From the human T2T-CHM13v2.0 reference genome, Homo sapiens, in the NCBI RefSeq assembly GCF_009914755.1, contig NC_060941.1: a stretch of 64,000 nt of DNA; one strand, given 5' to 3'. Below are positions 15,995 through 54,330 of the stretch, piece by piece. The notes under the pieces are model-generated. The model saw only the letters and a program-made list of their open reading frames with translations, ran no database searches and was not told where the DNA came from. Numbering within the stretch: position 1 is the stretch's first letter; each line of letters starts with the position of its first letter. Made by a program: the position numbers and the translations under genes.

Positions 15995-16150
15995 CTAGCT
16001 CTTCTTGGCCTCCTGCTCTCGGCGCCGGAGCTTCTCCCGCTGCCGCGCAGCCTTCTCCTGGGCCTTGCGCTCCTTCTCGGCAGCTGCTGCCATCTCCTTC
16101 AACTTGCGCTTCACCAGTGCCCGGTCATGAGAGTTGCTGAGCCCCAGGCT
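15995..16150 (-). CDS. SAMD14: SAMD14 last coding exon (SAM helix 5 and coiled tail)
   Basis: tcctccccag|AGCCTG; SLGLSNSHDRALVKRKLKEMAAAAEKERKAQEKAARQREKLRRREQEAKKS*TAG. Confidence 0.95.
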   Translation of the reverse strand, partial: SLGLSNSHDRALVKRKLKEMAAAAEKERKAQEKAARQREKLRRREQEAKKS

Positions 16151-16734
16151 CTGGGGAGGAGTCCGGGGTGAGGGAGAGAGTCCCAGAACCTTCCCAGTCC
16201 TGGCCTCCCACGCCCAGGCTCCTTTTGCCCCAGGTGTACTCTGTGGAGCTCCAAATCCTCCCTGGAGTGGAGCCTCCGCCTCCCACACCGTGACCTGCCC
16301 ATGGATCAGAACCCCCAGAGCAAGAATTTGGAATGAGTGTGGTTGGGAAAGATGAGGGTTGGGGGTATTAGGCGCTTCCTCCTCCTCCCCCACCATTCCT
16401 CCACTCAGTATTTCAGCCTTGGCCCGGACCTGCCCAACCTCCTGAGGCCCAGAGATGGGGAGTCACTTGCCCAAGGTCACACAGTTAGTGCCCAAGGACC
16501 CTCCTCACTTCCAGAGACTTCCTGGGGGCTCTTTTCACCATCCCTGCCCCAAGCAACTCAGCAGAGAGCAGGAGACAGGCCAGGAACCTCCCAGCTTATA
16601 GGTCAGAGGCCACCACCCCCTTCCTACAGCCTCCCCCTGCCCACTATTACCACTAGCCTCTGAGACAGAATCAGACCAAGCTGACCAGGGGGAGATGTGG
16701 CTTCCCATGATACCAGGACACTCATATGCATCAA

Positions 16735-16950
16735 GGGTCATCCTAGAGGGCAAGGTCAGCCTGGAGACCAGGGCTGGAGCTTGAAGGTCACACTGAAGTC
16801 ATGGACTAGAGTTTCAAGTCAAACTAGGGATTCATGCTACAACTCAAAAGATTAGACCAAGGACCTTGCCTAGAGGTCAGAGGTCAGGGTGGTGGCCACA
16901 GATGGAGTGAAAAGGTCAGCCCAGGAGGCTGGGCTGAGGGTCAAAGGTCA
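16735..16950 (+). promoter_or_regulatory. Cluster of nuclear-receptor RGGTCA half-sites with two perfect DR1 elements
   Basis: AGGTCAgAGGTCA at 16874-16886, GGGTCAaAGGTCA at 16938-16950, single half-sites at 16735, 16753, 16785 and 16913. Confidence 0.6.
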
Positions 16951-17025
16951 GGATGAGGGACTTCAAATCCTTGAAAGTCACCTCAAGTAACTGGGCTGGG
17001 TCATGGCCCTTCCACTCTGACCCAC

Positions 17026-17181
17026 CTTTAGTTTGCTTCCGTCCAGCTGCAGCAGCTGCGGCCCGTCTACCTGCCGTGCAGCAAACTCAGCAGCATACTG
17101 TTCCAGGTTGAGGCTCTGCAGCCACTGGCCCACCTGCTGGCTGGTCCAGTGGTGGACAGGGGGGAGGGGTTCATCCAGGAA
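17026..17181 (-). CDS. SAMD14: SAMD14 exon 9 (SAM domain core)
   Basis: tgcccag|TTCCTG...CTAAAG|gtgggt; FLDEPLPPVHHWTSQQVGQWLQSLNLEQYAAEFAARQVDGPQLLQLDGSKLK. Confidence 0.95.
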
Positions 17182-17288: not shown

Positions 17289-17408
17289 CTCATCTGAAGA
17301 CTGAGACAGCGTGTGGTAGGGGTAAGAACATTTGGCCTCCTGCCAGGGCCCACTGGGGATCTTGGGGCTGCTGCTGGGGGGCGTGGAGTCATCACTCAGA
17401 GTGGATTC
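17289..17408 (-). CDS. SAMD14: SAMD14 exon 8 (120 nt)
   Basis: ttctgtctag|GAATCC...GATGAG|gtgagc; ESTLSDDSTPPSSSPKIPSGPWQEAKCSYPYHTLSQSSDE; not captured by the ORF track. Confidence 0.92.
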
Positions 17409-18665: not shown

Positions 18666-18825
18666 CTGGGAAGCTGACTTCTTAGGGCTGAAGCCCTCGT
18701 GTTTAGGGGAGCAGGTGGGGGAGGTGGTGCTACCCGAGGATGCTGAGCCCTTGCCGCTGTCCGTGAACCAGGAAAAAGGCAGGAACGGGGAGCCCCCTGA
18801 CCTGCCGGACCCCTCCACTGACTCC
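18666..18825 (-). CDS. SAMD14: SAMD14 exon 7 (160 nt)
   Basis: ctctgcag|GGAGTC...TCCCAG|gtaagt; ESVEGSGRSGGSPFLPFSWFTDSGKGS...KKSASQ. Confidence 0.93.
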
Positions 18826-18931
18826 CTGCAGAGAGAGTGTCCAGCATGGGTGTGGGTACAGAGGGGAGGACCAGAGCACATGGGGAGCCAGGGGCGGGAG
18901 CTGTGGGTGGGCCGCCATGGGCACCTCTCAC

Positions 18932-19006
18932 CTGCTGCCCATGGACAGTCGGTTGCTGCCTTTCTCCTTCCGGCTCTTGCCCGTGGATGCTCGGCGCAGG
19001 GTGACC
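18932..19006 (-). CDS. SAMD14: SAMD14 exon 6 (75 nt)
   Basis: ccccacag|GGTCAC...CAGCAG|gtgaga; VTLRRASTGKSRKEKGSNRLSMGSR. Confidence 0.92.
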
Positions 19007-19104
19007 CTGTGGGGAGGCAGCAGGAAGTGGGGCAGGGCTGCCCACTGTGCTACCCCTTACCCCAGCAGCTCCAAGCCCTGCGATCTAGCCCCGCCTCCAC
19101 TCAC

Positions 19105-19192
19105 CCCAGGTCCAGGAACTTTCGGCGAGTCTTCTTATCGAGGCCGATGGTGGGGCTGGCGGGCTCAGGAGGACTGGCGTCACGGCTGTCAT
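19105..19192 (-). CDS. SAMD14: SAMD14 exon 5 (88 nt)
   Basis: ccctggaaag|ATGACA...CCTGGG|gtgagt; DDSRDASPPEPASPTIGLDKKTRRKFLDLG; weak AAG acceptor. Confidence 0.88.
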
Positions 19193-19427
19193 CTTTCCAG
19201 GGAGAGAAGGAAGGAAACTGCCTGTTTGCTGCCCTGCCTGCCTCCTTCGGCTGCCAGTGTGGGGTGGTAGAAATTCTCTTGACTTAGAATCAGGCATCCT
19301 GGCTCTGGTGGCCTTCACTAGCTGGGTGTCCTAGGATAAGCCACTTTACCTCTCTGGCCTTCCTCCATTTTAAATATGGGGATAATAACATCTACCTGCT
19401 TCATGGGACCTAATGGGATGCTTATGA

Positions 19428-19822
<395 letters not shown>

Positions 19823-19984
19823 TAACCAACCTTCCAAACTTGGCTCAAATGTCATTTCCAGGATGTTCCTAGCCAGGCCAAGCATCCTGGTGTATGCTCT
19901 CCCGCCATGCTGCCGCACACATTTCCCAAATAGCACTTGTTATAGTTTATAACTAGACATTTAGTTAAGGGATGATTTGATTGG

Positions 19985-20249
19985 GTTTTTGTTTTGTTTT
20001 GTTTTTGAGGCAAGGAGTGATCATAGCTCACTGCAGCTCAAAACTCCCGGGTTCAAGCTATCCTCCCGCCTCAGCCTTCCAAGTAGCTGGTTCTACAGGT
20101 GCATACCACGCGGGGCTAATTTTTTAATTTTTTCTGGAGACGGTCTCGCTATGTTGCCCAGGCTGGTCTCGAACTCCTGGGCTCAAGCGATCCTCCATCT
20201 CGGCCTCCCAAGGTGTTGGGATTACAGGCGTGAGCCGCCAGCCAGGCCT
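19985..20249 (-). mobile_element. AluJ-like, partly deleted
   Basis: gatcatagctcactgcagc, gggctcaagcgatcctcc. Confidence 0.8.
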
Positions 20250-20359
20250 GATTTGATTGTTTCTCCACTAAACCACTATGATGATAAAGACTGCATGTGT
20301 TTGCTCACCTGGGTGTCCCAGAGCCCACAGGATCTGGCACTTAGTAGGCGCTCGGTAAA

Positions 20360-20830
20360 GAATGAGTGAGCGGCGGCGTTTACTCTTCACCTCCCCCAGC
20401 CACCCTGCTCAGCTGCCCCTTCCGCGGCTGCGGTGCGCGCCGGGACCGGGAGGGCTGCTGCGCCCGGGAGCGACCAGCAGGAGGTGCGGCGCTGGCCGCC
20501 TCTCACCTTCGCTGTGCGGCTCTGCGCGCGGGTGGCGGCGCACGAAGCTGGGGGAGCTGTCGGAGGAGGGCGCGGAGCGCGGCGGAGAGCAGGAGGCGGC
20601 GGCCAGGCCCTCGTGCGACGCAGCGTTGTGCAGGGGCCGGTAGCGTGTGAGCGGCGAGGGCGGCGGCTCGTCCTCGTCCAGGCTGCGCCGCAACCCCGGA
20701 GGATCCAGGCAGAAAGAGCCCCCGGCCGGGGACCCCGGGCCTGAGTGCAAAGGCGAGCGCAGCCGGTGCAGGGGGCTCCCGCAGCCATCGGTCACCTGGA
20801 CGAGGGGGCAGCCGCTCACCGAGAACCCTC
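20360..20830. promoter_or_regulatory. Intragenic CpG island over SAMD14 exon 4
   Basis: Dense CpG extending into both flanking introns. Confidence 0.75.
20507..20795 (-). CDS. SAMD14: SAMD14 exon 4 (289 nt, lies in an intragenic CpG island)
   Basis: tcgtccag|GTGACC...GCGAAG|gtgaga; VTDGCGSPLHRLRSP...RAEPHSE. Confidence 0.93.
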
Positions 20831-21260: not shown

Positions 21261-21427
21261 CTTGCCTCCGGGCCCATCCGAGCCTTCACCATCCTCCGCG
21301 GAGCTGGCACTGTCCCGAAGCCTGGAGCGGGATGGCCGGTGTCTCCGGCCCTTGGCCAACAGTTGGGCCCGGGCCTTGTGTAAACTGCTGTCCAGTCTGG
21401 CCGTCTCTGGCACAGCCAAGTCCAGGT
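21261..21427 (-). CDS. SAMD14: SAMD14 exon 3 (167 nt)
   Basis: ttcgcag|ACCTGG...GGCAAG|gttggg; DLDLAVPETARLDSSLHKARAQLLAKGRRHRPSRSRLRDSASSAEDGEGSDGPGGK. Confidence 0.92.
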
Positions 21428-28013: not shown

Positions 28014-28056
28014 CAAAAACTTCATCCACGGGTTCTCGGAGCTTTGAAGAAGCCAT
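28014..28056 (-). CDS. SAMD14: SAMD14 exon 2 coding part (exon spans 28014-28068)
   Basis: cttcccag|CTCTCTTGAGTC-ATG GCT TCT TCA AAG...TTT G|gtaagt; MASSKLREPVDEVF; in-frame TGA ends 3 nt before the ATG. Confidence 0.93.
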
Positions 28057-28587
28057 GACTCAAGAGAGCTGGGAAGGACAAGAGGGGAGAGAAAGAAAAA
28101 GAGAGCCTGGGTTAGAGATTCAGGCTGACCGAGGCAGAAGAGATGTGGAAGGCTACCTGCTCCAGGCCTGTTGGCCCCTCCCCTTACCTTAGAACCCTTC
28201 TTCTGTCCCCTGGAAGAGAAGCCACTGGAATCATAACCCAGATGGTGGGCGCCGGGGCAGGCAGTATAGTAGGAGGGTGGGGGCAGACGCAAAACCAAGG
28301 CACAGACACAGGCTGAGCCCTGTGGTCCTGGTATCCTGGTCCACTGATTTGCTGTGTGCCTTCACGTGGGTCACTGAACTTCTCCCCTTCACTGTCTTGG
28401 GCCTTCGCATCATTAGCATCCCCTAAAAGCTTTCAATCATCAACTGTCCAATCAAATCTGGGAGAAGTCATGGAGATTATTAAATCCAATCCTCTCATGT
28501 TACAAATGAAGAAACAGAAGGGGGAGTGATTGGCCCAAGATCACATAGCAAGTTAATGGCAAAATCAGGACCAGGACCCAGGTTCTA

Positions 28588-33773: not shown

Positions 33774-33775
<2 letters not shown>

Positions 33776-33812
<37 letters not shown>
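33776..33812. repeat. (CA)n microsatellite
   Basis: Direct reading. Confidence 0.95.
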
Positions 33813-33817
<5 letters not shown>

Positions 33818-33988
33818 TAAGAGGAGGGAGGGGCTCAGGTGTGCATTTAGGAAGCACCCTTGGCTCCCCTGGAGACAGGGTTACAGAGGGCACTCTGAAG
33901 GCAGGGAGACCCGCTGGAGGCTATTGAGGGCCGGTGGCAGTGGGCATAAAGATTACAGATTAAGCTGAGAGCCCTTCAGGATGCAGGC

Positions 33989-34346: not shown

Positions 34347-34650
<304 letters not shown>

Positions 34651-36826: not shown

Positions 36827-36832
36827 TTTATG
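36827..36832 (-). terminator. Probable PPP1R9B poly(A) signal, non-canonical CATAAA
   Basis: Minus-strand CATAAA with upstream UGUA repeats (plus-strand tacataca near 36880) and a downstream GU/U-rich stretch; I saw no AATAAA in the 1.6-kb 3' UTR. Confidence 0.6.
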
Positions 36833-38407: not shown

Positions 38408-38461
38408 TTAAGTAGAATTGGAATTCCTCAGTGTTTGCAAGTTTCCTTCCAGTTCTGAGAT
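38408..38461 (-). CDS. PPP1R9B: PPP1R9B exon 10 coding part to TAA
   Basis: gttttccag|ATCTCA; ISELEGNLQTLRNSNST*. Confidence 0.95.
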   Translation of the reverse strand: MSELEGNLQTLRNSNST

Positions 38462-38629: not shown

Positions 38630-38726
38630 CTTGTCCAGGAGCTTGTCCATCTCCTCCTTTCTGGCCAGCTCCGACTCCTCCAGAACCCGACGCTGTGCAG
38701 TCTCCTTTTTCAGGAACTCGATCTCC
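38630..38726 (-). CDS. PPP1R9B: PPP1R9B exon 9
   Basis: tgcccag|GGAGAT...GACAAG|gtgggc; [32 protein letters not shown]. Confidence 0.95.
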
Positions 38727-39044: not shown

Positions 39045-39274
39045 TTCTGCTGGTAGTCCTTGATGAGGCGCTTGGCCTTGCTGTACTTGCGCTCCAGGGC
39101 CTGGTACTGCGCCTGAGTCTCCCGCAGGTGCTCGTCCACAGCCTGGCACAGGCTCTGGGCCTCACCCCAGTAGCCTTCCAGTTTCTCCATGCGCTCCTTG
39201 TTCTCCTCCACACTCTGCTCCAACTGCGCCTTCTCCACCCGCCAGCGCCCCTTCTCCTGCTCCAGGCTCTGCAG
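39045..39274 (-). CDS. PPP1R9B: PPP1R9B exon 8 (coiled coil)
   Basis: tctctcag|CTGCAG...CAGAA|gtacgt; [29 protein letters not shown]...KDYQQK. Confidence 0.96.
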
Positions 39275-41230
39275 CTGAGAGAGAAAGGCACGGCCCTGGG
39301 TTGGTGGGGGCCAGCAGGAGCCAAAGGGTACCCCCATCCTAGCACTGGGGCCAGAGTCGCCAGGGGATTCCTACCGTTGTGGAGTCCATTGCACCCCAAC
39401 TACTAACCCTCTTTGGCTGAGCCTGAGAACTGAAACCCAGAGAGGAAAGAAGTAGAGCTCAGCCTCAGAGCTCCCACCAGACTCCCTGTCACTGCACCCC
39501 ACTCGCAGGGAGGCTGGAGGCTTCGGTTAGTCACTGATACTCTGACTTGGCGCAATGCAACTAATGTCCCAAGCCTCAGTTATCCCATCTGTAAAATGGC
39601 AGTGATATGTGCCTCCCAATCTCACAAAAGCTCCAGTGAGACAGTACATGTGAAGTAAAAGGGCAGATGAGGGTCACCATTACTCTCTGTCCCCTCTCTG
39701 CAGCCCCAGCCCTGCTCGCCAGTCTCTGCACTTGTGGCTTCCTGAACAATCCTGGTTCTCTCCCAGCTTCCAGGTGACCCCAGCGCAGACCTCCAGTCCC
39801 CCACAGCTCAGTTCCGGATCCTCTGTTCTCTCTATACTCACTGCCATGGGGCACCGGCCCATCTCCCACACTACCTCTGTGCACTCTGAGCTGCAAATCT
39901 CAAGTCCCAGCCCACCCTTGCTCCCAACTCCCAGCTTTAGCTCCCAGCTCCTCCCAGGTACCATGCCCCAGACCAGGCCCCCGCAGCTGCACAAACCTAT
40001 GCCTCCTTTCCTGACTTGCTCTGTTAAAAGGCGCCACAACCTCATAGCCATGTTGGCACTCAGTCTCAGGCCAGTATTTGCTGCAAACATCCCTTGCTCT
40101 CTGTCCCCCAGCCACACAGGCCTTCCTGCAGATCCTCAGACTTGCCACAGGGCCTTTACGTGTGCTGTCCCCTCTGCCTGGAATGTCCCCCATCTACCCT
40201 CCTGCTTGCCTAGTTATTTCCCTCTAGCTCACCCTTCAGCTCTCTGCTGTGTGTCACTTCTCCAAAAAAGCCCCCACAGCTCCCTCCAACAGCACAGCCC
40301 TACTCCCACCTCCACCCGAATCAGGTTCCTCCTGCTTTAGCAGCTCAGTAAGCCTGTTCTCTCCTACAGAGCCCCATGCCAGCGTGTGATGATGACACAG
40401 TCACTGGTTTGCAGATGCACAAGAACAACGATCAACTATGGCTTTGCCCATCATGGTGATGAGAACAATACTGGACATCTAGAAGGTACCCAGAGGATGT
40501 CTGTAAGTAGAATGCACTAACAGACCTTTGGCGTGCCCCTCCCTTTCATACTCTGCATACACCTCAGGAACATGGCCTGTCACTCTGACCCCGGAAATGC
40601 AGCGCTCACCTACCCTTCCTTTCCAGACCCTCTGCCTATACTCTGAGCAGTCCTGGCCTACCCCTGCCAGGACACTGTCTGGGCCCCTAACCAGTTTGCC
40701 TGCCTCCCAGCACTGCCCACTTTCATGCCCTCCCACTTTGTAGGCAGTGGCTTTCCGAAAAATCCCAATGGCCACATACCCCATGCTATCTGTAGGACCA
40801 AGGCCAGAGTCTTTAGAGGGGAGGCAGGATACTGCAAGCCAGAGCCCATCCTGGCAGTCCAGCCCTGCCTCCACCTCTCCCCGACAGGCATGCTGCCACC
40901 TCCTGACTGGCCTCCCCTCAAAGCCAGACTCCAAGCTCCATGGAGCTCCTCTCCCTGCCAGGAATGCCCCTGCTTCTGCCCCAGCCATCCAAACCCTGGC
41001 CTCCTCTCCTGCATACCCCCATGTGGGAGGGTACACACACTCCCATGTCTGCAAGACCCCTATAGATCTGTCTCTCCCCACCACGGCAGAAGCCCCATAG
41101 GTACTGGGACTCCTATAGTCTAGGTCCCAGCAGAGGCCCCATACAGACTTTTAATATGAAGTCTGTATATCTGCATGCCTGTGAGGGTGCTGGCACCTGA
41201 CATGCTTGTGTAAGCATCTGTGTATACTAC

Positions 41231-41255
41231 GTGTGTGTGTGTGTGTGTGTGTGTG
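41231..41255. repeat. (TG)n microsatellite
   Basis: Direct reading. Confidence 0.9.
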
Positions 41256-41682
41256 CCACGTGTCTCCATCTGGGGTCGGCATCAGCACCTCTGTGTTACT
41301 TGCCCAGATGAGAATATGCATGCCCTGTGACACTCTTCCTAGACCAGGTGGTCTGATCGATGGCCATGCCTGTGTGTTTCAGAGCAGATGGGTGCAGAGT
41401 GGGTCTGCATATCCAGGCTGATAGCCTCGAGTGTAATGTGAAGCACAGGTCCATTGTCTCTGTGACTGTGTCTGTGTAGAGTGGGTGTCTCTATGTGTCT
41501 GGGTGAGGGGGTCTGTGGGTACTATGTGCCTGGGGCCAGGCTGCTGTGTCAGTGTGTGTACTTCTGGGTGGTCTGTACTTATCAATGGGCCTATATATAG
41601 CAGACATATGTGGGACAGCACAAACATAGAGACACCTAGAGCAGAACTTAGCATGCTTCGGTATCACAGCTAATATACTGAC

Positions 41683-41979
41683 TTTTTTTTCTTTTGACAC
41701 ATGGTCTCATTCTGTTACTCAGGCTGGAGTGGAGTGCAGTGGCACAATCACGGCTCACTGCAGCCTCGACCTACCCTGGCCCAAATGATCGTCCCACCTC
41801 AGCCACCCAAGTAGCTGGGATCACTGGTGTGCGCTACCACACCTGGCTAATTTTTGTATTGTTTGTAGAGATAGGTTTTCGCCATGTTGCCCAGGCTGGT
41901 CTCTAACTCCTGGCTGAAGCAGTCTGCCTTGGCCTCCCAAAGTGCTGAGATTACAGGCATGAGCCACTGCGCTCAGCCT
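41683..41979 (-). mobile_element. AluJ-like
   Basis: cacggctcactgcagcctcgacc. Confidence 0.85.
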
Positions 41980-42321
41980 ACTTTGACTTTTTATTGAGCT
42001 CCTATTATGTCACACATTGTGCTAAAGACTTGACGTGTGTTATCTCATTTAATCCCACAACGATCCTGTGGTGTTGGTGCTATTACGACCTCATTTTATA
42101 GATGAGGAGGCTGAGGCACAGAGAAGCAAGTGATGCTGGAGCAGATGGATCCAGAGCTTAAGCTCTTAATATCGTATCTATCATATCATCTTGCTTTAGA
42201 GCAGCTTGTTCTGTGGGTACCTGTGCCTAAGTGTCAGCATGTGCAGGTGTGAGGGTAGGGGGACCCTGCTCCTCAACACACACATGCACGCACGCAAAAG
42301 CACACACATACGCACCCTTAC

Positions 42322-42375
42322 CTTTCTTTTCAGCTGCTGGATCTCTGCCTCAGTGACCGCATGCTTGATCTGGAG
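42322..42375 (-). CDS. PPP1R9B: PPP1R9B exon 7 (54 nt)
   Basis: cccaacag|CTCCAG...AGAAAG|gtaagg; [18 protein letters not shown]. Confidence 0.95.
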
Positions 42376-42487
42376 CTGTTGGGCAGAGGGGCAGGCACTC
42401 AGCTCCAGCAGGGTGGGGCAGGCAGTGCCAAGGGCAGGAGACCTGCCTGCCTTTCCCTCCACCACTCCAGGGAGCCCCTCCTCCCAC

Positions 42488-42640
42488 CTCCTTGAACTTG
42501 TGCACCAGCTTCTCGGGCTCCATGTCCACAGGGGACAGTGCATCCTCGTTCTCCGCTAGCTCAAACACCTCGATGGCCATCTCACCACCCGGGAACGTGG
42601 GGCTCAGCTCCTCATCCTCGTCAGTGGCATACTCTCCTGT
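42488..42640 (-). CDS. PPP1R9B: PPP1R9B exon 6
   Basis: ttcgcag|ACAGGA...AAGGAG|gtggga; [51 protein letters not shown]. Confidence 0.96.
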
Positions 42641-43106
42641 CTGCGAAGGGAGACCGGAGACTGTGGGCCCACCCCACCCAGCTGCCCTCAGCCCTGATGA
42701 CCAGGGCTGGGACCAGTTGCCCATGCCAGACAGAGAGCTACCCAGGAATGTGGTTCATGCCTCCCACTTCAGCCTGAGGCTGGACCAGAGACACGGTTTA
42801 TGTCTTCCCCCAACAGCCTGGTAGTCCCCTGATGACAGAGGGGGTCAGTTCCTCATCAGCCTGGGTCTCTGAAGAAACAGCCTGTACTATCTTTCCCCTT
42901 CTGGATCTATCTCCCTTTCAGATTAGGTCCCCCAAGATTAGGGGCTATGCTCTCCCCGCAGACTGGGGGCTCTTTGAGAGGACTGTGTATTCCTTGTCCG
43001 GCCTCTGAAGACAAAGAGTGTGACTGGAGGACAGGGAATGGCACTGTGGGCTTTTTACTAGGGCAGGGGAAGCAGTAGAGGCAGATGACTGTAATGCTTC
43101 ATCTAG

Positions 43107-43119
43107 CCACCAGGGGGCG
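43107..43119 (+). promoter_or_regulatory. CTCF core motif CCACCAGGGGGCG
   Basis: Exact match to the CTCF core consensus, in PPP1R9B intron 5. Confidence 0.6.
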
Positions 43120-43151
43120 ACCACGCGGCCAGCCAGGCAGGGACTCCCTAC

Positions 43152-43287
43152 CTCCTCGTCATCCTCCCCATACTGGGCGTATCTCTGCTCCATCATCTCC
43201 CGCTGCCATCGCTCCTGTTCCAAAGTCTGCTGAATTAGCTGGGCCACTTCGCTCTGCTCTCCCGGCCGCTCCCGGCCAATCATAAAC
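43152..43287 (-). CDS. PPP1R9B: PPP1R9B exon 5
   Basis: cctgcag|GTTTATG...GAGGAG|gtaggg; [45 protein letters not shown]. Confidence 0.96.
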
Positions 43288-44327
43288 CTGCAGGGGCACC
43301 GGCATCATCCGCTGCCTCTGTCCTCAGCCAGGTAATGCATCATCCTCCCTGCTGATGCTCCCCTCTCCAAACTCAGGCCCTCCCAGGGGAGGAGAGATGA
43401 GAGGGCTGAGTCCGAAGGCTGCAGTGTTAATAATGAATGGGGGAATGAGGGCCCTTATCAGGTTTCCTTCCCAAGGGAGGCAGGAAGGCCCATTCACCCC
43501 TCTGGCCAGTATTGCGGGAGGGAGAATGTCAGCCCACCTCTAGGCTGTGCTGCAGGGGACATGCACTGAGGAGGCTCTTCCCCTGCCACAGGGGAGAAAA
43601 TGAGGCAGGGAAAGGTGAAGATGACCCTCCCAGCAGGGATGGGCTGCGGAGGTGTTTCTTGGGTATGCTCCAAGCCCCTGAGCTTCAGGAAGGGGCGGGA
43701 TGATGGCAACTGGAGATTAGGATGGAGAGGAAATAGTGGAACTTCCAGGCACCAGCCCCTCCTCCCGGTGGCCACCCACATCCTGTTTCTCTCCACCACC
43801 CTTTCCTGGGGGTAGTACCCCTCTTGCAGGGGGGCAGGGAGTGATCCCTGAATGTTAAGCCAAAGGTAGAGTGGACACAGGGAGCTTCTGATCCAGTCCC
43901 CTTGGTTACAGGCCTGGGGCGGAGTCTTCCCAGGATGACATAGGGCTGGTCGGGGTGGGGGGCATGAGGTCCCAATGAGGGGACCCCAATATGGTTAGCA
44001 TTCACCCTGGACGTCCTGGTTCTTCAGTCAGTGAGTCAGGGACAGGTAGGGGGAAGGAGAAGAAGCCCTAGAGGACAGTTTGGAGGGCTGGTGGACAGTG
44101 GGCCAGGAAGGCTGAGTACTGGTGGCCAGCTGTTGCCAGGGAGCTGGGATGAGAAGGCAGGTGTGAGGCGAGGGACTCCAGGCACAGCAACTCCTGCAGC
44201 CAAGGAGTCAGCAGAACCTCTGTGAGCTGGGCCACCAGAACCTTAACTGGCTGTTAAGGCAGGTGAACGGAGTGCCTGGACGAGGACCTCCTGCCCGCTC
44301 CCACGCCCCACCCCTCTGGGCTCTCAC

Positions 44328-44432
44328 CGCACTCGGCCCTTGGTGTTCCGGAGCACAGACGCCGCGAAGCTCTGGGTCACTCCCACCAGACTTGTTCCAT
44401 CCACCTCCACCAGGAGATCATTCACCTGGATC
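44328..44432 (-). CDS. PPP1R9B: PPP1R9B exon 4 (PDZ domain)
   Basis: ccgctag|GATCCAG...GTGCG|gtgaga; [35 protein letters not shown]. Confidence 0.95.
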
Positions 44433-44453
44433 CTAGCGGAGTGACATTGGTTA

Positions 44454-44774
<321 letters not shown>

Positions 44775-46656
44775 TCACAGATACTTTGTCCTCACAGGGA
44801 CCTGGTACTTTGTCTACCTGCGTAACATTCACAAGGCCAGAGGATTAAGTGTCAGCCAGGCCCACCTGTGTGGGCAGTGAGAGCCAGGCAAGCAAAGCAG
44901 ACACAGGCGTCCAGGACCAGGAGACGCGGCAGGCACACTTCCTGTGACAATCACACTCTTGTCCCCTCCTTCATCATACTTGACTGAGCGGTGTGACATT
45001 CTCAGAGTTCATCTCTGCCATGCACACTGGCCAGGAGCCCCACAGCACACAAGTGACATGCCACCCTCTTACGTGTACATTTCTGCACAGAACTGAGTGC
45101 ACAGATGTCCTCCCAAGTCCCCAAGACCGAATGGCACTCTCTCGAGTTCACACACTGTCCCACACACACCTGATACAGGTGCACCTGCCGACACACTCCA
45201 GTTGTGTCCCCTGAAGCCCGTGTTCTCCATACAAGGGGAGGTTCAGTCTGGCCTGCCGAGGGAGATGGAGGGTGGGGGGCCTCTCAGACACCTCCCTCCT
45301 CCACTCCACCTCCCTGGGAGCTCCAGGCCTTCTCTCAGGACTCCCACACGGAAATGGAGGAAATGGCCTATTGTCAACAGCTCACCCCAACACATGCCAC
45401 TCCCAGGTGGGCATGAGTGAGTGGCCACGGCCACCATGCACACTCACTCCTTAGACAACCCACAGGCAACAATGGGAAAGGCTCTGGAAGTTCACATTGG
45501 GAGGGGAAGGGGTAAATGAAAGGGTATCCTGTTCCCGGCCCCTCTCCATGCCACCTGGGCCACAACAGGTAGAAGCCCCTTGACAGGGCAGCCCCATCTC
45601 TAGAAACAAGATCCCAAAGTCACCCAGATCCCAAAGGACACCTGCTCACCTCTGTCACATGGAGGGGGTCTGGGTTTGGAGGTACCACCACAAGAGATCC
45701 CCAATGTCACCTCTAACTTACAGCCACCCTGGGGGATGCCCTACAGCCCTTCCTACTGCCACTCCCCACACCCCTGGAATACACAGCTAACACAGGGGTC
45801 CCTGGCTGGCACACAGCTCCAGGATGCCCTCCCTGAACCTTCTGTCCCACAGAACTCACCCCTTGCAACCACAGATGCTCAATACAGGCACACACACTCA
45901 CATGCGCAAAGACAGCCTGTCTCCAGAGCCACTGCCATCAATGGGTCTAGTCACAGCCTCCTGGCCCCTGCTCTCTATGCCCCAGCCACACCTGCCTGCT
46001 CATGGCGCCACTGCCTGGAACCTCTGCACTCACTCCCTCAGCACAGCTAACTCCTGCTCCAGCCTTAGCTCTCAGCTCCAGCACTGCTTCCTCCAGGAAG
46101 CCTTCCCTAATGCCCAGAGAGATTAAACCCTCCTGTTGTATGCCTTCACAGCAGTCTGCATTTCCCTCCATTTCACTACCTTTTGTGTGTCCATTTATTC
46201 AATGTCTACCTCACACCACACTGCACACTTCTCAAGTGCGCCAGGCCCTCACCATTGACTTCCCAGGGCCCAGCACCGGCCCAACACTGTCAGAGACTCA
46301 ATGTCCAGCGAAAAAAAAGCTCAAATATACTCCATGCCTGTCTTCTCCCTACCAGGGCCCAAACTGTACTCCAGACCGGGATGCACAACACACGCCTATA
46401 GCCCCCATGGTCACCAGCCCCTCCTGGAGAACACACGCTCCTTCAGGGCATAGGGGCTGACAGTGCTCACTGTTGTATTTCTGGGGCCTGGAACAGCACC
46501 TGGCATGGCAGTGCTCCCCGAACATCTCAGCTGCACACACAGCACGGAAATCTCCCAGGGAAGGCCCGCCCCACCCCCTGCTCAGTGGCCCACCCCACCA
46601 AGGATGGCCGGTCGGAGAGGGAAAAAGGGTCAGGCGAGACTGGGGAGGATTGGTAC

Positions 46657-46777
46657 CTGCCATCCCGATGGGCCGCACCACCCTCCGTCACGGTCTTGAC
46701 GAAGATACCCAGCTTCTCCAGGCCCATGTCTGCCCCGGCGCCCATGCCGATGATGCTGATGCCCAGGCCCTCGGAGT
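46657..46777 (-). CDS. PPP1R9B: PPP1R9B exon 3 (PDZ domain, GLGI loop)
   Basis: ttccacag|ACTCCG...GGCAG|gtacca; [41 protein letters not shown]. Confidence 0.96.
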
Positions 46778-47065
46778 CTGTGGAACAGAGAGTGGTGAGA
46801 TGGCAGGGCTTGTAGGGGACAGACGAGAGACTCTCCACCCCGAATTCCAGGGCACAGCCCCCCCATCAGGAAGCAGTCCCCATTAGGGGATGTCCCACAA
46901 CTGAAGAAGGGATATAGTTCTGTCCACCGTCTTTGCCAAGTCTACTAGGATGGCTCCTGAGCCGCTCCCTGCCCTTTGTCCCTTCCAAAGAACCAATGGG
47001 CAGAAGAGCGTGCCAAGGGTGGCACAGGCAGGTAAGACTGTTGCATATGCAGACCAGGGCGTGTG

Positions 47066-47106
47066 GCCAGGATGGGGGTAGCCAGGATGGGGGTAGCCAG
47101 GATGGG
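47066..47106. repeat. 15-bp tandem repeat, 2.7 copies (gccaggatgggggta)
   Basis: Direct reading. Confidence 0.9.
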
Positions 47107-48171
47107 ACTCAGCCCTAAGCCTTTGGTCTTCTCCCTCTCAGCCAGTCTCATCTGTACTCATAGCTTCAAGGACCAAAGACCTCCAGATTTTCTCTCCCCT
47201 GAGGTCCATTCCCCTATCCACACCTGCCCCTGCCTGACTCATGGCCCTCTGATGTCCCAACTAATGACCTTCCCCCACAAACACTCCCTCATGGGGGATG
47301 GTACCACCACCTGCCACCTGCCAGACCTGGGAGGCACCTGGATTCCTCCCTCCCACTCACAGCCTCCACCTGAGCCAAATGACCCCCAGATGCTATGGAT
47401 TCTACCCCTGGAGATCTTTCCAGTCCACCCACACCCGCTCTGCCATCTTCCTGTCCACGCCACAGTGGCCTTTCTCCATCCACTTGTGACCCCCTCCCTA
47501 CATCACAGCCTGGTGTGGTCTTTCTAGACCTTTCCTGTGCTTCGAAATGGCTCCCAATCCATCTTAGCAACAAGACCACGTGGTCTGCAAGGCCTCATTT
47601 GCATGCTCTTCTTGCCCTCCCTATGCAAATGCAGCCAAGCCCCTTTCCTGACTACTCCCCTAATTCCTCCTCACCAGAGTGCAACTCAAGCTTCACTTCC
47701 CTGGAGAATGCCCCCAAGCACAGTCTGGTTAGGTCACCTGTTAAACGCTTTTACAGTGGCCCCTCCTTACCTTCCCCAGCCCCTATTCCAGCGCCTAAGG
47801 GTGAGATTAGATGTGACTGTGCCTTCCATGTCTGCCTCCCCCATCCATCTCCCCAGGAGCCCACCACTGTGTCCCCAACACAGAGCCCAGGACCTAGCAC
47901 ACAGTACCCTACAGAGACCTGTTAACTGAATGTGCAAATGTGGTTCCATGACCGGGGTGGTGGGGGTGTGGCTTGGCCTGGGTTGGAGGCCCTGTTTGCT
48001 CTGGGTGCTGACAAGGGAGGAGCGGGGAAGGTCACCAAGGGCCTGAGTCAGAGGGAGAGGCCCAGCAAGTCTGTGGGAGCCCCTGAGGGCACAGGGCAGG
48101 AGCTGGTGCCAGAGATGAGACCCGGGTCAACCCCAGCTGTGCGCAAGTGACGTGGCCTCCTGGCCTCTCAC

Positions 48172-48304
48172 CCTTCTCCAGCTCCACAGGGAACAGCTCC
48201 AACCTCTCCACACGCTTCTCCAGCTCGTACTCAGCAGAGGCTGCCATGGGATCCACATCCTCGTTGCGACGATCGTAATCCTCGTTGGAGTAAGTGCTGA
48301 ACAC
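48172..48304 (-). CDS. PPP1R9B: PPP1R9B exon 2 (133 nt)
   Basis: ccccag|GTGTTC...GAAGG|gtgaga; [44 protein letters not shown]. Confidence 0.96.
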
Positions 48305-51300: not shown

Positions 51301-51909
51301 GATGAGACCCCCAAAAGGGGCAGCTCCCATCCCTCTTTCAGGGCTCCCAGAGAATGTGGCAAGAACACTTGGGGCCTGCCAAGGCCATGGGAGTCTGTCC
51401 TATTGAGCAGCCAAGAGTAAAGGCATGCCCACTACTGCCAGGCACCCAGGGGGATCCCAGCCCCACCTCCTCCTCCTCCATGCCTGCAGAAGGCCTCTCC
51501 CCATCAAGGACCACACAAAGTGCCCCTCCCTGTGCAAGGAGGACCGGGCAGCTGGCCTGCAGGGACCCCCAGGGAACACGGCGCCAGCCAGTCACATGGC
51601 CACAGACCAGCTCACCCTCACGATCTGCTTCCCTCTTTCACTTCTGCAAAGTTGGGGTGGGGGTACAAACAGAATAGAGGAAGGGCTGCCTGCGGTCCCC
51701 TGCAGCTTCGTTTTGAGAAGTTCCTGGCTTTCCCCTTTCTCACCTCATCCAGCTCCCATACAGGGGGAAAGCACCCCGGCCCCCTCTCTACCCAGTGAAG
51801 GGCAAATGTCTCTCCTGAAGACACACACACCCCTTCACACTACCCAACCCCAGCCTCTGGCAGCCTCTGGAGGAAGGAATGTCCGGGTGAGGAAGGGAAA
51901 GCAGGTGTC

Positions 51910-54330
51910 CCAGGACCCGCGTGGGGCAGGGCGGGTTCCGCGGAGCGGCGGGGCGGGGCAGCAGGCGGAGGAACCTGAGGGCAGGTCGGGGCAGGCCACC
52001 CTCCTCGCACACCTGAAAATCCCTCTCTGACAAACAGCTGGAACTCCCCCACGCCCCCCTGAGGGTGGGAACTTCTGGGAAGGGGGCTGGGTGGCAGGGG
52101 CTGACTCAGCCTGCCAAACCCGGCTGGCTGGCTGGCGAGCCGGGGGCGGCCGCGTGCACGTGGCAGGGGCGGCGCGGGGGCAGGGCGGGGGGGCTCACTT
52201 ACTTGGATGGGCGCCGTGCTGAAATGGATCTTCCGGCTCGGGGCTGGGTCCTCCTCCTCCGACAGCCCCGGGATCTCCACGCACCCCGACTCGGGCTCGT
52301 AGGGGGGCTCCCCATCCTCCTCGTCGTCTTCGTCGTCCTCCTCCAGGGCACTGCCCGCAGAGTCCTCCCCGAGCCCACTGTAGGCGCTCACGTCCACCAA
52401 GTCCGCCTCCGAGAAGTCCTCCTTCTTGGATTCATCTACCTCCTCAGGGGCCACGTCCGGGGCCCGGCCATTGCCCACCCCCCTCTCTGGCGGCGCTACC
52501 GCCGCCGCCTCCTTCTCCGGGGCCGCTTGGGCCTTTGGCTCCTCGGGCGCGGGGCTGGCTGCAGTTGCCACGGTGCTGCCATTCTCCAGGGCCGCGTGGA
52601 CCGTAACCTCGGCCTGGATCACCTCCCCGGGCGCCGACTCGGCCTCCGACTCCCCGCTCTCCTCCACCTCCACCGGCTTAATCTTGCGCACCTCCCGGGG
52701 CTTGGGGGGCGGCCGGGCAGGGGCCACTCGGTGCTGCGGGGGCTGCTGCCCTGCGGGGCATCGCTCTTTCTCGGCCGGGGCATCCCCCGACGGGGCGGGC
52801 GGCGGCGGCGGCGGGGGCTGGAACACCCGGGACCGCTTGCTGACCAGCTTCGAGTTGACCTGGGGAACCCCTGCGGCCCTGGGGAGCCCGGGCCCGCGGT
52901 GGAGGCCGGTCCTCGAGTCGGCCTTCTCGAAGACGGCGCTGAGCTGGCTGACCGTGGGGGACACGGCGTCAGCGTCCAGCTTGTCCAGCGCCTCGGTGCT
53001 GCCGTTGAAGCGCACCACGACGTCCAGCTTCCGGTCCTGCAGGCCGGCGCGCTCCTGCCTCAGCAGCCGCCGCGCCGCGGCCTCCTTGTCGCCGCCTGCG
53101 GCCGCTGGGGCGCTCCGTTCGAACAGCTTCCGCGTCTCCTGCAGCCGGGACGGCGGGTGCGGCGGCGGCGCAGGCTGCGCGGAGGGCGCGGGCTTGGAGT
53201 CGAAGCGGCTCACGCGCTCCGACACGCTGGTGCCCAGCTTCAGCAGGGCGCTGTGGTCCACGTTCTCGTTCAGGCTGCTGGCCCGCGGCAGCGACAGGCG
53301 CACGCCGCGCTCGGACGCCCGTGGGGCCTCGGCCAGGCCCGCGCCGCCGCCCGCCTCGCCCGAGGGCCCCGCCGTCGTGCCCATCTGCAGGAACATACTT
53401 TTGATGCGGTGGACGTTGGAGCCATATTTCTTGTGGTGGGCCCCCTTGGGTGCCTCGTCGGGCCCGGGCGCGTCGGGCGGCTTCAGCGCCTGGATGCCCG
53501 CCTCGTAGGCGCTGCGGTGCGGGGAGGCGCTCCGGAGGGGACCCCCGGGCCCCCGTGGCTCCGTCTTCATCATGGTGGGGGGAGCCGGGTTCGCATGCCC
53601 CTGCTCCCCGCTCCCCCGCTTCAACAGGCGGCTGGCCAAGTCGGGACCACCGCCCCCTCCCCCCGATAAAAGAAACCCCGAAGGCCTTTTTTAGGGTCCC
53701 CCCAAAACCAAGCTGCCAAAAACAGTTAATCCCGCTTTAAAAAAAAAAATGAAAAAAAAAAAATCTCCAAGCGCCCTGTGTGTGGGTCGCCTCCCCCAAT
53801 CAAGCTGCCGAAGACAGCCAGCCCCGCTTCAAAAGCCCGAGCGGCCTGGTACGGTCGCCCCCACCCAAATTAGCAAAGCGGCGTCTGGGGCCGGTGGGAG
53901 CGCGCGCCCTGCCCGCGAAGCAGCCGCGGTGTCGCCGGCTCACATCGTCCGAGACGGTGTCAGCGGGGCTGGCAGCCCGGGCGTCCCCCAGTCCGGCCGG
54001 AGGCCTCGGCTCTCGGGGGGCCCGGCACCCCAACGCCCATGGCTGCTCCGCCGGCCCGGGCCGCTCCGCCGCCGCGCCTCCCTCCCTCCCTCCCTCCCCC
54101 CCGTGCCCCGAGCCTCGGTCTTTCTCTGGCTTTGCCCGAGCGGCGGCTGCCGGAGACCGAGCGGCTGCCCTTCTCGCAGCCGCCGCTGGGGGACTGGCAC
54201 CTCTGGGTCCTAAAGGGATCGGATTTCCGGGGCCGGAGCCTGTGAGCCCTCCCCTTCCCCTCCACCCGAACGGATCCCCTCCCCTCCCCAGCCCTCGCGG
54301 AGAGCCTTCCGCTGCCCCCGGACGTTGGCC
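51910..54330. promoter_or_regulatory. CpG island covering the PPP1R9B promoter and exon 1
   Basis: About 2.4 kb of very high CpG and GC content. Confidence 0.9.
52203..53573 (-). CDS. PPP1R9B: PPP1R9B exon 1 coding part (1371 nt)
   Basis: ccaccATGATGAAG; [26 protein letters not shown]...[13 protein letters not shown]|gtaagt; RVxF-type motif RKIHF at about 52221-52235. Confidence 0.97.

What the first reader, a model, noticed from the sequence alone, without database searches (positions are those of the whole stretch)
15995..53573. PPP1R9B + SAMD14 look like a fissioned neurabin gene, with SAMD14 as the missing C-terminal half of spinophilin
Seen: the two genes are tandem on the minus strand, and PPP1R9B stops right after its coiled coil (ISELEGNLQTLRNSNST*). 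Known: the paralog neurabin-1 (PPP1R9A) and fly Spinophilin continue past the coiled coil to a SAM domain, which spinophilin lacks. From my memory of neurabin-1, the region after its coiled coil (approx. DLNEAVPETERLDSKALKTRAQLSVKNRRQRPSRTRL) aligns with SAMD14 exon 3 (DLDLAVPETARLDSSLHKARAQLLAKGRRHRPSRSRL). Its SAM and tail (approx. WLMSLNLEQY...LLQLDGNKLKALG...DRAVVKKKLKEM...KAQEKMEKQREKLRRKEQE) align with SAMD14 exons 9-10. The order along the DNA is collinear with neurabin-1. Inference: after paralogon duplication the ancestral gene acquired a stop and poly(A) site in one exon and a new CpG-island promoter and start exon, separating the PP1/PDZ scaffold from the capping-protein-binding/SAM module. 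The SAM similarity itself is known; I do not know whether the fission model has been published.
Basis: partly seen in the sequence, partly recalled or inferred. Interest (0 to 1): 0.85.

Follow-up and report, generated by a model that had tools for sequence, protein, structure and literature searches.

The report
Spinophilin and SAMD14: one gene split
The neighbouring human genes PPP1R9B (spinophilin) and SAMD14 are the front and back halves of one ancestral neurabin-type gene that stays whole in its sister gene PPP1R9A, which explains where SAMD14 came from and why spinophilin has no SAM domain.

Summary

- **Coverage:** PPP1R9B (817 aa) aligns with residues 1-848 of the long form of human PPP1R9A. 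SAMD14 residues 15-413 align with residues 889-1295 at 40% identity. So the match covers almost all of SAMD14, not only the SAM domain.
- **Introns:** All 9 PPP1R9B introns and all 8 SAMD14 coding introns match PPP1R9A introns in position and phase.
- **Synteny:** Gene order and strand match between chr17 and chr7.
- **Ancestry:** Amphioxus, two lampreys and a hagfish carry the capping-protein-binding motif and the SAM domain in one protein.
- **Age:** In trees, SAMD14 lies outside the jawed-vertebrate PPP1R9A group, as PPP1R9B does.
- **Break point:** PPP1R9B's TAA sits where PPP1R9A has CAA, 17 codons into the shared exon.

It matches a short neurabin-1 segment in sharks, coelacanth and axolotl. 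Only the non-coding exon 1 and its CpG island have no counterpart.

Seventeen database models that fuse the two genes look like annotation artefacts. Five literature searches found both similarity islands published but no fission model.

The parts
52203..53573 (-). PPP1R9B coding exon 1 (1371 nt; actin-binding region and the RKIHF PP1 motif). Counterpart of PPP1R9A exon 1 (1395 nt).
   Evidence: the following intron is phase 0 in the same alignment column as in PPP1R9A
39045..48304 (-). PPP1R9B coding exons 2-8 (133, 121, 105, 136, 153, 54, 230 nt; PDZ and coiled coil). PPP1R9A counterparts are 133, 121, 105, 136, 156, 54, 230 nt, plus one extra 66-nt exon that PPP1R9B lacks.
38630..38726 (-). 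PPP1R9B coding exon 9 (97 nt, ...[10 protein letters not shown], phase-0 donor). Counterpart of PPP1R9A exon 10 (97 nt).
38408..38461 (-). Break exon: the last PPP1R9B coding exon (ISELEGNLQTLRNSNST plus TAA at 38408-38410). It corresponds to the first 17 codons of PPP1R9A exon 11 (172 nt, IRDLEAEVFRLLKQNGTQVNNNNN...). The TAA is in register with CAA (Gln).
   Evidence: 7 of 17 residues match human PPP1R9A and 8 of 17 match the chimaera and shark forms. 75 of 120 neurabin-2 representatives end with this exon.
36814..38407 (-). PPP1R9B 3' UTR. It occupies the place of the rest of the ancestral exon and the following intron. No residual similarity to PPP1R9A exon 11 was found. There is no AATAAA or ATTAAA in the last 87 nt; CATAAA lies near the end.
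   Evidence: (641 of 1000 shuffles score as well)
33268..36813 (.). 3.5 kb gap between the PPP1R9B 3' end and the SAMD14 start site.
   Evidence: annotation supplied with the task; only noise-level peptide matches here
32620..33267 (-). SAMD14 exon 1 (non-coding) inside a CpG-island-like stretch (32500-33499). This is the part with no counterpart in PPP1R9A, so it is the candidate new promoter.
   Evidence: GC 0.71-0.76, CpG observed/expected 0.65-0.88; annotation
28014..28068 (-). SAMD14 exon 2 (55 nt; ATG at 28054-28056; MASSKLREPVDEVF; phase-1 donor). It is homologous to the ...GD(A/P)DEVF segment before the motif exon in non-amniote neurabin-1. Its 12-nt leader reads LS*V in the frame coming from PPP1R9B exon 9.
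21261..21427 (-). SAMD14 exon 3 (167 nt, phases 1 to 0): the capping-protein-binding motif exon. Counterpart of PPP1R9A exon 12 (158 nt, phases 1 to 0).
   Evidence: function from PMC9282853 (passages)
18666..20795 (-). SAMD14 coding exons of 289, 88, 75 and 160 nt (start phases 0, 1, 2, 2). Counterparts of PPP1R9A exons 13-16 (247, 88, 84, 199 nt, same phases). They include the KKTRRKFLDLG and PFSWF motifs.
17289..17408 (-). SAMD14 120-nt exon (ESTLSDD...SQSSDEF). Counterpart of PPP1R9A exon 17 (120 nt, NFTFNDD...LSSDE). The alternative 84-nt exon at 17459-17542 has no PPP1R9A match.
15995..17181 (-). SAMD14's last two coding exons (156 and 156 nt; SAM domain and basic tail). Counterparts of PPP1R9A exons 18-19 (183, 213 nt). 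The intron after LDG.KLK is phase 0 in both genes.
   Evidence: Pfam SAM_1/SAM_2 listed for SAMD14 and neurabin-1 proteins

Best explanation
PPP1R9B and SAMD14 come from the fission of one ancestral neurabin gene. [quoted passage not shown]

The vertebrate genome duplications produced the chr7 and chr17 paralogons. The chr7 copy (PPP1R9A) stayed whole. The chr17 copy became two transcription units.

- Upstream unit: it now ends 17 codons into the exon that corresponds to PPP1R9A exon 11, at a TAA in register with a Gln codon. It is polyadenylated 1.6 kb further on.
- Downstream unit: it starts at a CpG-island promoter 3.5 kb beyond that poly(A) site. A non-coding first exon is spliced to an old internal coding exon, whose Met codon became the start. 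Eight exons follow, matching PPP1R9A exons 12-19 one to one.

Shown: collinearity, intron identity, synteny, unsplit outgroups, and the tree position.

Inferred:
- A single nonsense change made the stop.
- The order of events (stop, poly(A) site, promoter).
- The date: after the PPP1R9A/PPP1R9B duplication and before the last common ancestor of ray-finned fishes and tetrapods.
- The functional result: the PP1/PDZ scaffold and the CPB/SAM module, joined in neurabin-1, are now expressed and regulated separately.
For: 1. Coverage. PPP1R9B 1-817 aligns with PPP1R9A 1-848 (45.6% over 903 columns). SAMD14 15-413 aligns with 889-1295 (40.0% over 425 columns, E 8e-61). Only 40 PPP1R9A residues are left uncovered. 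Against coelacanth neurabin-1, the 445-aa SAMD14 isoform (residues 11-441) matches 881-1306 at 39.8%, E 7e-71. The middle part alone, without the CPB or SAM exons, gives E 1e-7 against human and 9e-15 against coelacanth.

2. Gene structure. The rebuilt PPP1R9A coding sequence has 19 exons, all with AG/GT sites, and an open frame of 1318 aa. 9 of 9 PPP1R9B introns and 8 of 8 SAMD14 coding introns have the same column and phase as PPP1R9A introns. Exon lengths are identical for 133, 121, 105, 136, 54, 230, 97, 88 and 120 nt.

3. Synteny with orientation. chr7 has COL1A2(+) SGCE(-) PPP1R9A(+) ... PDK4(-) ... DLX6/5. chr17, read in reverse, has COL1A1, SGCA, PPP1R9B, SAMD14, PDK2 ... DLX3/4.

4. 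No other human locus. A paddlefish fused model matches 16 places on chr17 and 11 in PPP1R9A. The other 5 matches are weak (E >= 0.03).

5. Outgroups. Amphioxus P0239 has the YDRRN/PDZ region at 738-776, the CPB motif at 1196 and the SAM domain at about 1580-1660 in one protein. Lampreys P0212 and P0242 and hagfish P0238 carry both CPB and SAM. C. elegans NAB-1 is described as actin-binding domain, PDZ, coiled coil and C-terminal SAM (PMC6179291, passage).

6. Trees. In the C-half tree (26 rows, 447 of 647 columns kept) SAMD14 forms a clade at 100/99. Jawed-vertebrate PPP1R9A, including 4 cartilaginous fishes, forms a clade at 97/96. In the N-half tree (25 rows, 416 of 517 columns) the PPP1R9A/PPP1R9B split has 99/99 support. 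An AU test rejects SAMD14 grouped with bony-vertebrate PPP1R9A (p 0.0176).

7. Break point. CAA versus TAA in register.

8. Separate products. 75 of 120 neurabin-2 representatives end with the 17-residue exon. SAMD14-type proteins from human to paddlefish and catfish begin at the same Met exon. Bovine RNA-seq was reported to contradict a fused Gnomon model (PMC3833843, passage).
Against: - No genomic locus outside the human genome could be read. Adjacency in other species is inferred only from 17 gene models that join the two genes.
- No shark, gar or frog PPP1R9B or SAMD14 was seen. Protein-search length windows excluded stand-alone SAMD14 orthologues from the last search. So the date of the split has only an upper bound at the bony-vertebrate ancestor.
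- Homology of the 17-residue last exon is weak as sequence alone (7-8 of 17 identities; tblastn E 0.4-0.75 in a 12 kb target). It rests mainly on position and phase.
- DNA downstream of the stop shows no similarity to the rest of PPP1R9A exon 11.
- The ATG-exon homology covers only about 10-13 residues. Its exon boundaries in neurabin-1 of other species were not checked.
- The AU-test group was named after I had seen the tree.
- Cyclostome placement is unresolved (70/42), and amphioxus, one lamprey and the hagfish have long branches.
- The turtle and manakin fused models have a clean 4-residue linker, so an in-frame read-through product in sauropsids is not excluded.
Confidence: 0.9

Rival explanations
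1. The split is incomplete. The locus still behaves in some lineages as one gene, with an internal promoter and an internal poly(A) site. A read-through, in-frame 'long neurabin-2' carrying CPB and SAM is made alongside the two short products.
For: 17 database models join the two genes. In turtle P0121 and manakin P0132 the linker is only 4 residues (SCPA, LCPT), from an open 12-nt leader of SAMD14 exon 2. The exon arithmetic keeps the frame: a phase-0 donor, then 55 nt, then a phase-1 acceptor.
Against: - Linkers in the other models are long, unrelated between species and look like translated non-coding sequence.
- In human the leader has an in-frame TGA (LS*V).
- RefSeq annotates no read-through gene in this window.
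- Bovine RNA-seq was reported to contradict the fused Gnomon model (PMC3833843).
- The SAMD14 Met and the PPP1R9B stop are conserved.
Confidence: 0.1
2. SAMD14 is a later partial copy of the 3' half of PPP1R9A that landed next to PPP1R9B by chance.
For: SAMD14 resembles only PPP1R9A in the human genome.
Against: - SAMD14 lies outside a PPP1R9A clade that includes cartilaginous fishes (97/96).
- The nested alternative is rejected (p 0.0176).
- The copy would have had to land exactly downstream of the paralogue that lacks that half, on the same strand, starting within one exon of where that paralogue stops.
Confidence: 0.03
3. The two-gene state is ancestral, and PPP1R9A and the invertebrate neurabins are fusions.
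For: None found. It is only a formal possibility, because direction cannot be read from the human genome alone.
Against: Amphioxus, two lamprey paralogues and hagfish carry CPB and SAM in one protein. In amphioxus and one lamprey the PDZ and coiled coil are in the same protein too. C. elegans NAB-1 is described with PDZ, coiled coil and SAM. This reading would need repeated independent fusions at the same exon junction.
Confidence: 0.02
4. The resemblance is just a generic SAM fold plus a short linear motif, with no common descent of the whole gene.
For: Published work reports only two islands: SAM at 57% identity and the CPB motif at 64.7% (PMC7242717, PMC9282853).
Against: Alignment spans residues 15-413 of 417. 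The middle part alone is significant. 8 of 8 introns are shared. The two islands are explained by the roughly 1100-aa neurabin-1 isoforms, which skip exons 13-16.
Confidence: 0.01

Closest known systems
Neurabin-1 (PPP1R9A), long isoform
   Same: Same exon-intron plan across the combined PPP1R9B and SAMD14 coding region (17 of 17 introns). Same order of modules. Same paralogon neighbours.
   Different: PPP1R9A is one gene of about 390 kb. It has an extra 66-nt exon and, in other species' isoforms, an 8-residue micro-exon. Forty residues of its exon 11 have no counterpart in either chr17 gene.
Invertebrate and cyclostome neurabins (amphioxus 'PPP1R9A' P0239-P0241, lamprey P0212 and P0242, C. 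elegans NAB-1)
   Same: PDZ, coiled coil, CPB-like motif and C-terminal SAM in one protein. The NAB-1 architecture is from a passage of PMC6179291.
   Different: The KKTRRKFLDLG and PFSWF motifs, shared by SAMD14 and jawed-vertebrate neurabin-1, were not found in them. Fly Spinophilin was not examined.
Gene fission of one duplicate, a known kind of event
   Same: An ancestral multi-domain gene is represented by two adjacent, same-strand, non-overlapping genes, while a paralogue and the outgroups keep the fused form.
   Different: Here the break lies inside an exon, and the downstream gene reuses an old internal coding exon for its ATG. I make the comparison with other fissions from general knowledge, not from any call.
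Capping-protein-interaction (CPI) motif proteins (CARMIL, CKIP-1, CD2AP and others)
   Same: SAMD14 residues 38-54 bind capping protein (PMC9282853, passages).
   Different: That paper calls the motif atypical: 3 of 7 consensus residues, and a CKIP-1 motif swapped in its place did not pull down capping protein. The only close relative of the motif exon in the human genome is PPP1R9A exon 12.

Membership tests
Gene fission of a neurabin (PPP1R9) ohnologue | The two derived genes are adjacent, on the same strand, and in the order of the ancestral protein | tested here: met
   Annotation: PPP1R9B at 36814-53737 (-), then SAMD14 at 13142-33267 (-).
Gene fission of a neurabin (PPP1R9) ohnologue | The two products cover non-overlapping, collinear parts of the unsplit paralogue | tested here: met
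   they cover PPP1R9A 1-848 and 889-1295 of 1318.
Gene fission of a neurabin (PPP1R9) ohnologue | Shared intron positions and phases across both genes | tested here: met
   9 of 9 and 8 of 8.
Gene fission of a neurabin (PPP1R9) ohnologue | Outgroups have the fused architecture, which sets the direction of change | tested here: met
   (amphioxus, lampreys, hagfish). These are proteins from database models only; no outgroup DNA was read.
Gene fission of a neurabin (PPP1R9) ohnologue | The split copy and the unsplit copy are paralogues from the same duplication (conserved synteny) | tested here: met
   (COL1A, SGC, PPP1R9, PDK, DLX order and strands). Trees.
Gene fission of a neurabin (PPP1R9) ohnologue | Independent transcripts: own promoter, own poly(A) site, no obligatory read-through | tested here: inconclusive
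   RefSeq models, the CpG island, an in-frame TGA in the read-through frame and a bovine RNA-seq statement. No transcript data could be examined here.
Gene fission of a neurabin (PPP1R9) ohnologue | Adjacency of the two genes in other vertebrates | tested here: inconclusive
   Inferred from 17 merged gene models in turtles, a lizard, birds, rodents, a colugo, paddlefish and arowana. No loci were read.
Neurabin/spinophilin family (for PPP1R9B) | PP1-binding RVxF motif, PDZ domain and coiled coil | tested here: met
   RKIHF in exon 1. Pfam PDZ families listed for the orthologues. 65-69% identity to neurabin-1 over residues 414-817.
Neurabin/spinophilin family (for SAMD14, as its detached C-terminal module) | SAM domain most similar to the neurabin-1 SAM, plus the CPB motif exon | tested here: met
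   Pfam SAM_1/SAM_2 on SAMD14 proteins P0127 and P0128.
CPI-motif proteins | Direct binding to capping protein through the motif | not testable with these tools
   Reported for SAMD14 in PMC9282853 (passages). I saw no such test for neurabin-1.

The most novel reading that the evidence does not exclude
The split is not complete everywhere. In sauropsids (turtles, birds) an in-frame read-through mRNA may join the last PPP1R9B exon to SAMD14 exon 2 through a 4-residue linker and make a full 'long spinophilin' with CPB and SAM. In mammals, where a TGA closes that frame, spinophilin and SAMD14 may still work as a non-covalent pair on the same actin and capping-protein sites. If so, SAMD14 phenotypes (Kit signalling, stress erythropoiesis) and spinophilin phenotypes would share one pathway.
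Probability: 0.12. Interest if true: 0.75.

Novelty: new member of a known kind. Interest (0 to 1): 0.6.

Why it matters
- **Origin of SAMD14.** SAMD14 has been studied as a stand-alone protein of unclear ancestry. This work makes it the detached C-terminal half of a spinophilin-type scaffold.
- **Two published puzzles explained.** One is why spinophilin has no SAM domain. The other is why SAMD14's capping-protein motif and its SAM domain both resemble neurabin-1, which one paper noted only as 'interestingly' (PMC9282853).
- **Why the link was missed.** The roughly 1100-aa neurabin-1 isoforms skip the four exons that match the middle of SAMD14.
- **Direct predictions.**
  - Neurabin-1 should bind capping protein through exon 12.
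  - The conserved KKTRRKFLDLG and PFSWF motifs should have a shared function in long neurabin-1 and SAMD14.
  - Spinophilin and SAMD14 may act on the same structures.
- **Annotation.** 17 public gene models that merge the two genes need review.
- **A dated example.** It is a clean case of an ohnologue resolved by fission, with the break point mapped to a codon.

Tried and rejected
- **Relic of the lost exon part.** I looked for DNA similarity between the PPP1R9B 3' UTR and the rest of PPP1R9A exon 11. There is none (641 of 1000 shuffles score as well). Peptide searches of window 27000-39000 with that segment from five species gave only noise, apart from the last exon itself.
- **DEVF micro-exon in human PPP1R9A.** I did not find it in the 6.4 kb I held of the 16.4 kb intron. 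The other 10 kb was not read, so this is open.
- **ESM Atlas** with the turtle SAMD14 part: best scores 0.76-0.79, below the tool's own threshold for a lead, so uninformative.
- **E-box/GATA composite element.** No match in the window. I took the motif form from memory, so this says little about the published SAMD14 enhancer.
- **Fused models as evidence for a still-fused gene.** Rejected for most, because their linkers are unrelated between species.
- **Fly Spinophilin.** The paper search and one review gave no passage on its SAM domain, so I make no claim about it.
- **Rows left out of the trees.**
  - C-half tree: sparrow P0128 and teleost PPP1R9A P0235 and P0236, because the motif anchor was not found.
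  - N-half tree: paddlefish PPP1R9A and both lampreys, for the same reason. Hagfish was not included.
- **Failed scripts.** Searches stopped on my own errors and were rerun corrected.
- **Literature.** Searches found no paper stating the fission model. That library lacks most subscription journals. I could not consult orthology databases, which may already group these genes. I did not ask for supplements; alignment supplements of PMC9282853 or PMC7242717 could hold more on neurabin-1.

Full report
**1. The observation**

I spliced the RefSeq exons of the window in a script.
- PPP1R9B has 10 coding exons and gives 817 aa ending ISELEGNLQTLRNSNST*.
- SAMD14 gives 417 aa (NM_001257359) or 445 aa (NM_174920).
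- The SAMD14 ATG lies in exon 2 (28014-28068).
- Exon 3 (21261-21427) begins with DLDLAVPETARLDSS..., after a phase-1 intron inside the Asp15 codon.
- Both genes are on the minus strand, with SAMD14 downstream.
- PPP1R9B's 3' end (36814) and SAMD14's start site (33267) are 3.5 kb apart.

**2. How far the similarity goes**

I fetched parts of PPP1R9A from the same genome. I rebuilt the coding exons of its long isoform, using a sloth neurabin-1 (P0203) as a guide. The result is 19 exons, all with AG/GT sites, and an open frame of 1318 aa.

- PPP1R9B 1-817 aligns with PPP1R9A 1-848 (45.6% over 903 columns).
- SAMD14 15-413 aligns with PPP1R9A 889-1295 (40.0% over 425 columns, E 8e-61 for a database size I set at 2e7).
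- The SAMD14 middle part, without the motif exon and the SAM exons, still gives E 1e-7 against human PPP1R9A and 9e-15 against coelacanth.
- Against coelacanth neurabin-1 P0138, the 445-aa SAMD14 isoform (residues 11-441) aligns with 881-1306 at 39.8% identity, E 7e-71. PPP1R9B ends at residue 835 of the same protein.

So the two chr17 proteins tile neurabin-1 and leave about 40 residues uncovered.

In the whole human genome the motif exon matches only itself and PPP1R9A exon 12 (2 matches). A paddlefish fused model matches 16 places on chr17 and 11 in PPP1R9A. Its other 5 matches are weak (E >= 0.03). That search ran with a stricter first look, so weak matches may be missing.

**3. Gene structure**

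Coding exon lengths:

| Gene | Exon lengths (nt) |
|---|---|
| PPP1R9A | 1395, 133, 121, 105, 136, (66), 156, 54, 230, 97, 172, 158, 247, 88, 84, 199, 120, 183, 213 |
| PPP1R9B | 1371, 133, 121, 105, 136, 153, 54, 230, 97, 54 |
| SAMD14 | 43 (in a 55-nt exon), 167, 289, 88, 75, 160, 120, 156, 156 |

I made an eight-sequence alignment. All 9 PPP1R9B introns fall in the same column and phase as PPP1R9A introns. Seven of the 8 SAMD14 coding introns do too.

The eighth is the phase-1 intron before the Asp of DL(D/N). It is the same acceptor in both genes. It is displaced in the human PPP1R9A row only because that isoform lacks the preceding short segment.

**4. The break point**

PPP1R9A exon 11 (chr7:96488116-96488287, 172 nt, phase 0 to 1) encodes IRDLEAEVFRLLKQNGTQVNNNNN...DGLSQ.

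The last PPP1R9B coding exon starts at the same phase-0 intron. It encodes ISELEGNLQTLRNSNST, with 7 of 17 residues identical to human PPP1R9A and 8 of 17 to the chimaera and shark forms. It then has TAA where PPP1R9A has CAA.

A single nonsense change is therefore a sufficient explanation, but that is an inference. As sequence alone the 17-residue match is weak (E 0.4-0.75 in a 12 kb target). Position and phase carry the argument. Downstream of the stop nothing resembles the rest of exon 11.

The stop position is stable. 75 of 120 neurabin-2 cluster representatives, from mammals to a newt, end with this exon. Most of the other 45 are truncated or run into an intron.

**5. The start of SAMD14**

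The 14 residues of exon 2 (MASSKLREPVDEVF; turtle MSSSKLRDADEVF) align with a segment just before the motif exon in neurabin-1:
- chimaera: ...SAMKTGDADEVF|DFNEAVPE
- sharks
- coelacanth
- axolotl

Amniote, gar, bichir and sturgeon forms in my set lack this segment.

So the ATG exon is an old internal coding exon. Only the non-coding exon 1 has no counterpart. It sits in a CpG-island-like stretch (GC 0.71-0.76, CpG observed/expected 0.65-0.88).

In human, the frame coming from PPP1R9B exon 9 into SAMD14 exon 2 reads LS*VM, so a read-through splice would terminate.

**6. Direction and age**

- **Synteny.** chr7 has COL1A2(+), SGCE(-), PPP1R9A(+), PDK4(-), DLX6/5. chr17, read in reverse, has COL1A1, SGCA, PPP1R9B, SAMD14, PDK2, DLX3/4.
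- **Amphioxus.** P0239 has the PP1/PDZ region (738-776), a coiled coil, a CPB-like motif (DLFDDVIPPTALLDTS...RRQPSR at 1196) and a SAM domain in one protein.
- **Cyclostomes.** Lampreys P0212 and P0242 and hagfish P0238 also carry CPB and SAM together.
- **Nematode.** A passage of PMC6179291 describes C. elegans NAB-1 as actin-binding domain, PDZ, coiled coil and C-terminal SAM.
- **C-half tree.** 26 rows, 447 of 647 columns kept. SAMD14 (8 rows) has 100/99 support. Jawed-vertebrate PPP1R9A (14 rows, including 4 cartilaginous fishes) has 97/96. Cyclostomes (3 rows) have 92/95, and their position is unresolved.
- **N-half tree.** 25 rows. It splits PPP1R9A from PPP1R9B at 99/99.
- **AU test.** Forcing SAMD14 together with bony-vertebrate PPP1R9A costs 13.6 log-likelihood units (p-AU 0.0176). 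I named that group after seeing the tree.

The fused state is therefore ancestral, and the SAMD14 lineage is as old as the PPP1R9A/PPP1R9B split.

The fission itself is bounded only by the paddlefish. There the PPP1R9B-type last exon and the SAMD14 Met exon are both recognisable.

In the last protein search, 13 of the 120 listed proteins paired a PPP1R9B-type front with a SAMD14-type back. Together with models from the earlier searches they come from turtles, a monitor lizard, birds, rodents, a colugo, a paddlefish and an arowana. None came from cartilaginous fishes, although many shark and ray neurabin-1 proteins were listed. This hints that sharks are split too, but it is negative evidence.

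**7. The fused database models**

Seventeen models join the two genes (P0047, P0053, P0121-P0124, P0126, P0129-P0137, P0183).

Their linkers are unrelated between species and look like translated non-coding sequence. A cattle study states that a fused Gnomon model there conflicts with RNA-seq (PMC3833843, passage). I take them as annotation artefacts that nevertheless imply adjacency on one strand in those species.

Two of them (turtle P0121, manakin P0132) have a clean 4-residue linker. That leaves room for real read-through in sauropsids.

**8. What is in print**

[quoted passage not shown] - Neither passage mentions spinophilin, paralogy or fission.
- Searches for SAMD14 with neurabin, PPP1R9B, spinophilin or PPP1R9A, and for 'gene fission' with neurabin, found no such model.

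There is a likely reason. Neurabin-1 isoforms of about 1040-1120 aa (4 of the 6 examined had the junction ...DSLERK|NF...) skip exons 13-16. Those are the counterparts of the SAMD14 middle exons, so only two islands of similarity remain visible.

**9. Verdict**

The feature is real and the fission model is strongly supported. The break is mapped to a codon, and the origin of the SAMD14 start exon is corrected. It is a new, well-resolved example of a known kind of event.

Still open:
- The date within early jawed vertebrates.
- Whether any lineage still makes a joined product.
- Whether the two proteins still act together.

Noticed in passing
window 13059-16150: The last exons of PDK2 (+) and SAMD14 (-) overlap tail to tail by about 2.1 kb. 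The end of the PDK2 coding sequence (13059-13199) lies under the end of the SAMD14 3' UTR.
   Followed up: no
chr7:96505417-96520372 (loci L019, L023, L027, L046); proteins P0207, P0209, P0211, P0215: Neurabin-1 isoforms of about 1040-1120 aa skip exons 13-16 (618 nt, frame kept). Those four exons match the middle of SAMD14. This probably hid the full-length homology.
   Followed up: yes
proteins P0125 (catfish) and P0194 (carp family): These SAMD14-like models start at the same Met exon and keep the CPB, F.DLG and FSW motifs. They show no SAM match. P0194 is joined to a Med24-like part. This may be a further domain loss or an annotation problem in these fishes.
   Followed up: partly
proteins P0212 (Petromyzon) and P0242 (Lampetra): The two lamprey neurabin-like proteins differ strongly in their CPB and SAM regions, so they look like paralogues. 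Both are unsplit.
   Followed up: partly
window 28057-28068; proteins P0121, P0132: The 12-nt leader of SAMD14 exon 2 is open in the turtle and manakin fused models (SCPA, LCPT). In human it carries an in-frame TGA (LS*V).
   Followed up: partly
window 17459-17542 and 27185-27476: Two SAMD14 exons gave no PPP1R9A match among the loci held: the alternative 84-nt exon of NM_174920, and the alternative first coding exon of XM_054315361.1 (97 aa). The second was included in the query but its rows were filtered from the output.
   Followed up: partly
whole window: There is no CANNTG-N6-9-AGATAA element in the window. I took the motif form from memory, so this says little about the published SAMD14 intron-1 enhancer.
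   Followed up: partly
chr7:96439536-96439601 and 96488116-96488287: PPP1R9A has two runs of five asparagines (NCNNNNNYF in the 66-nt alternative exon, QVNNNNNIF in exon 11). PPP1R9B has neither.
   Followed up: no
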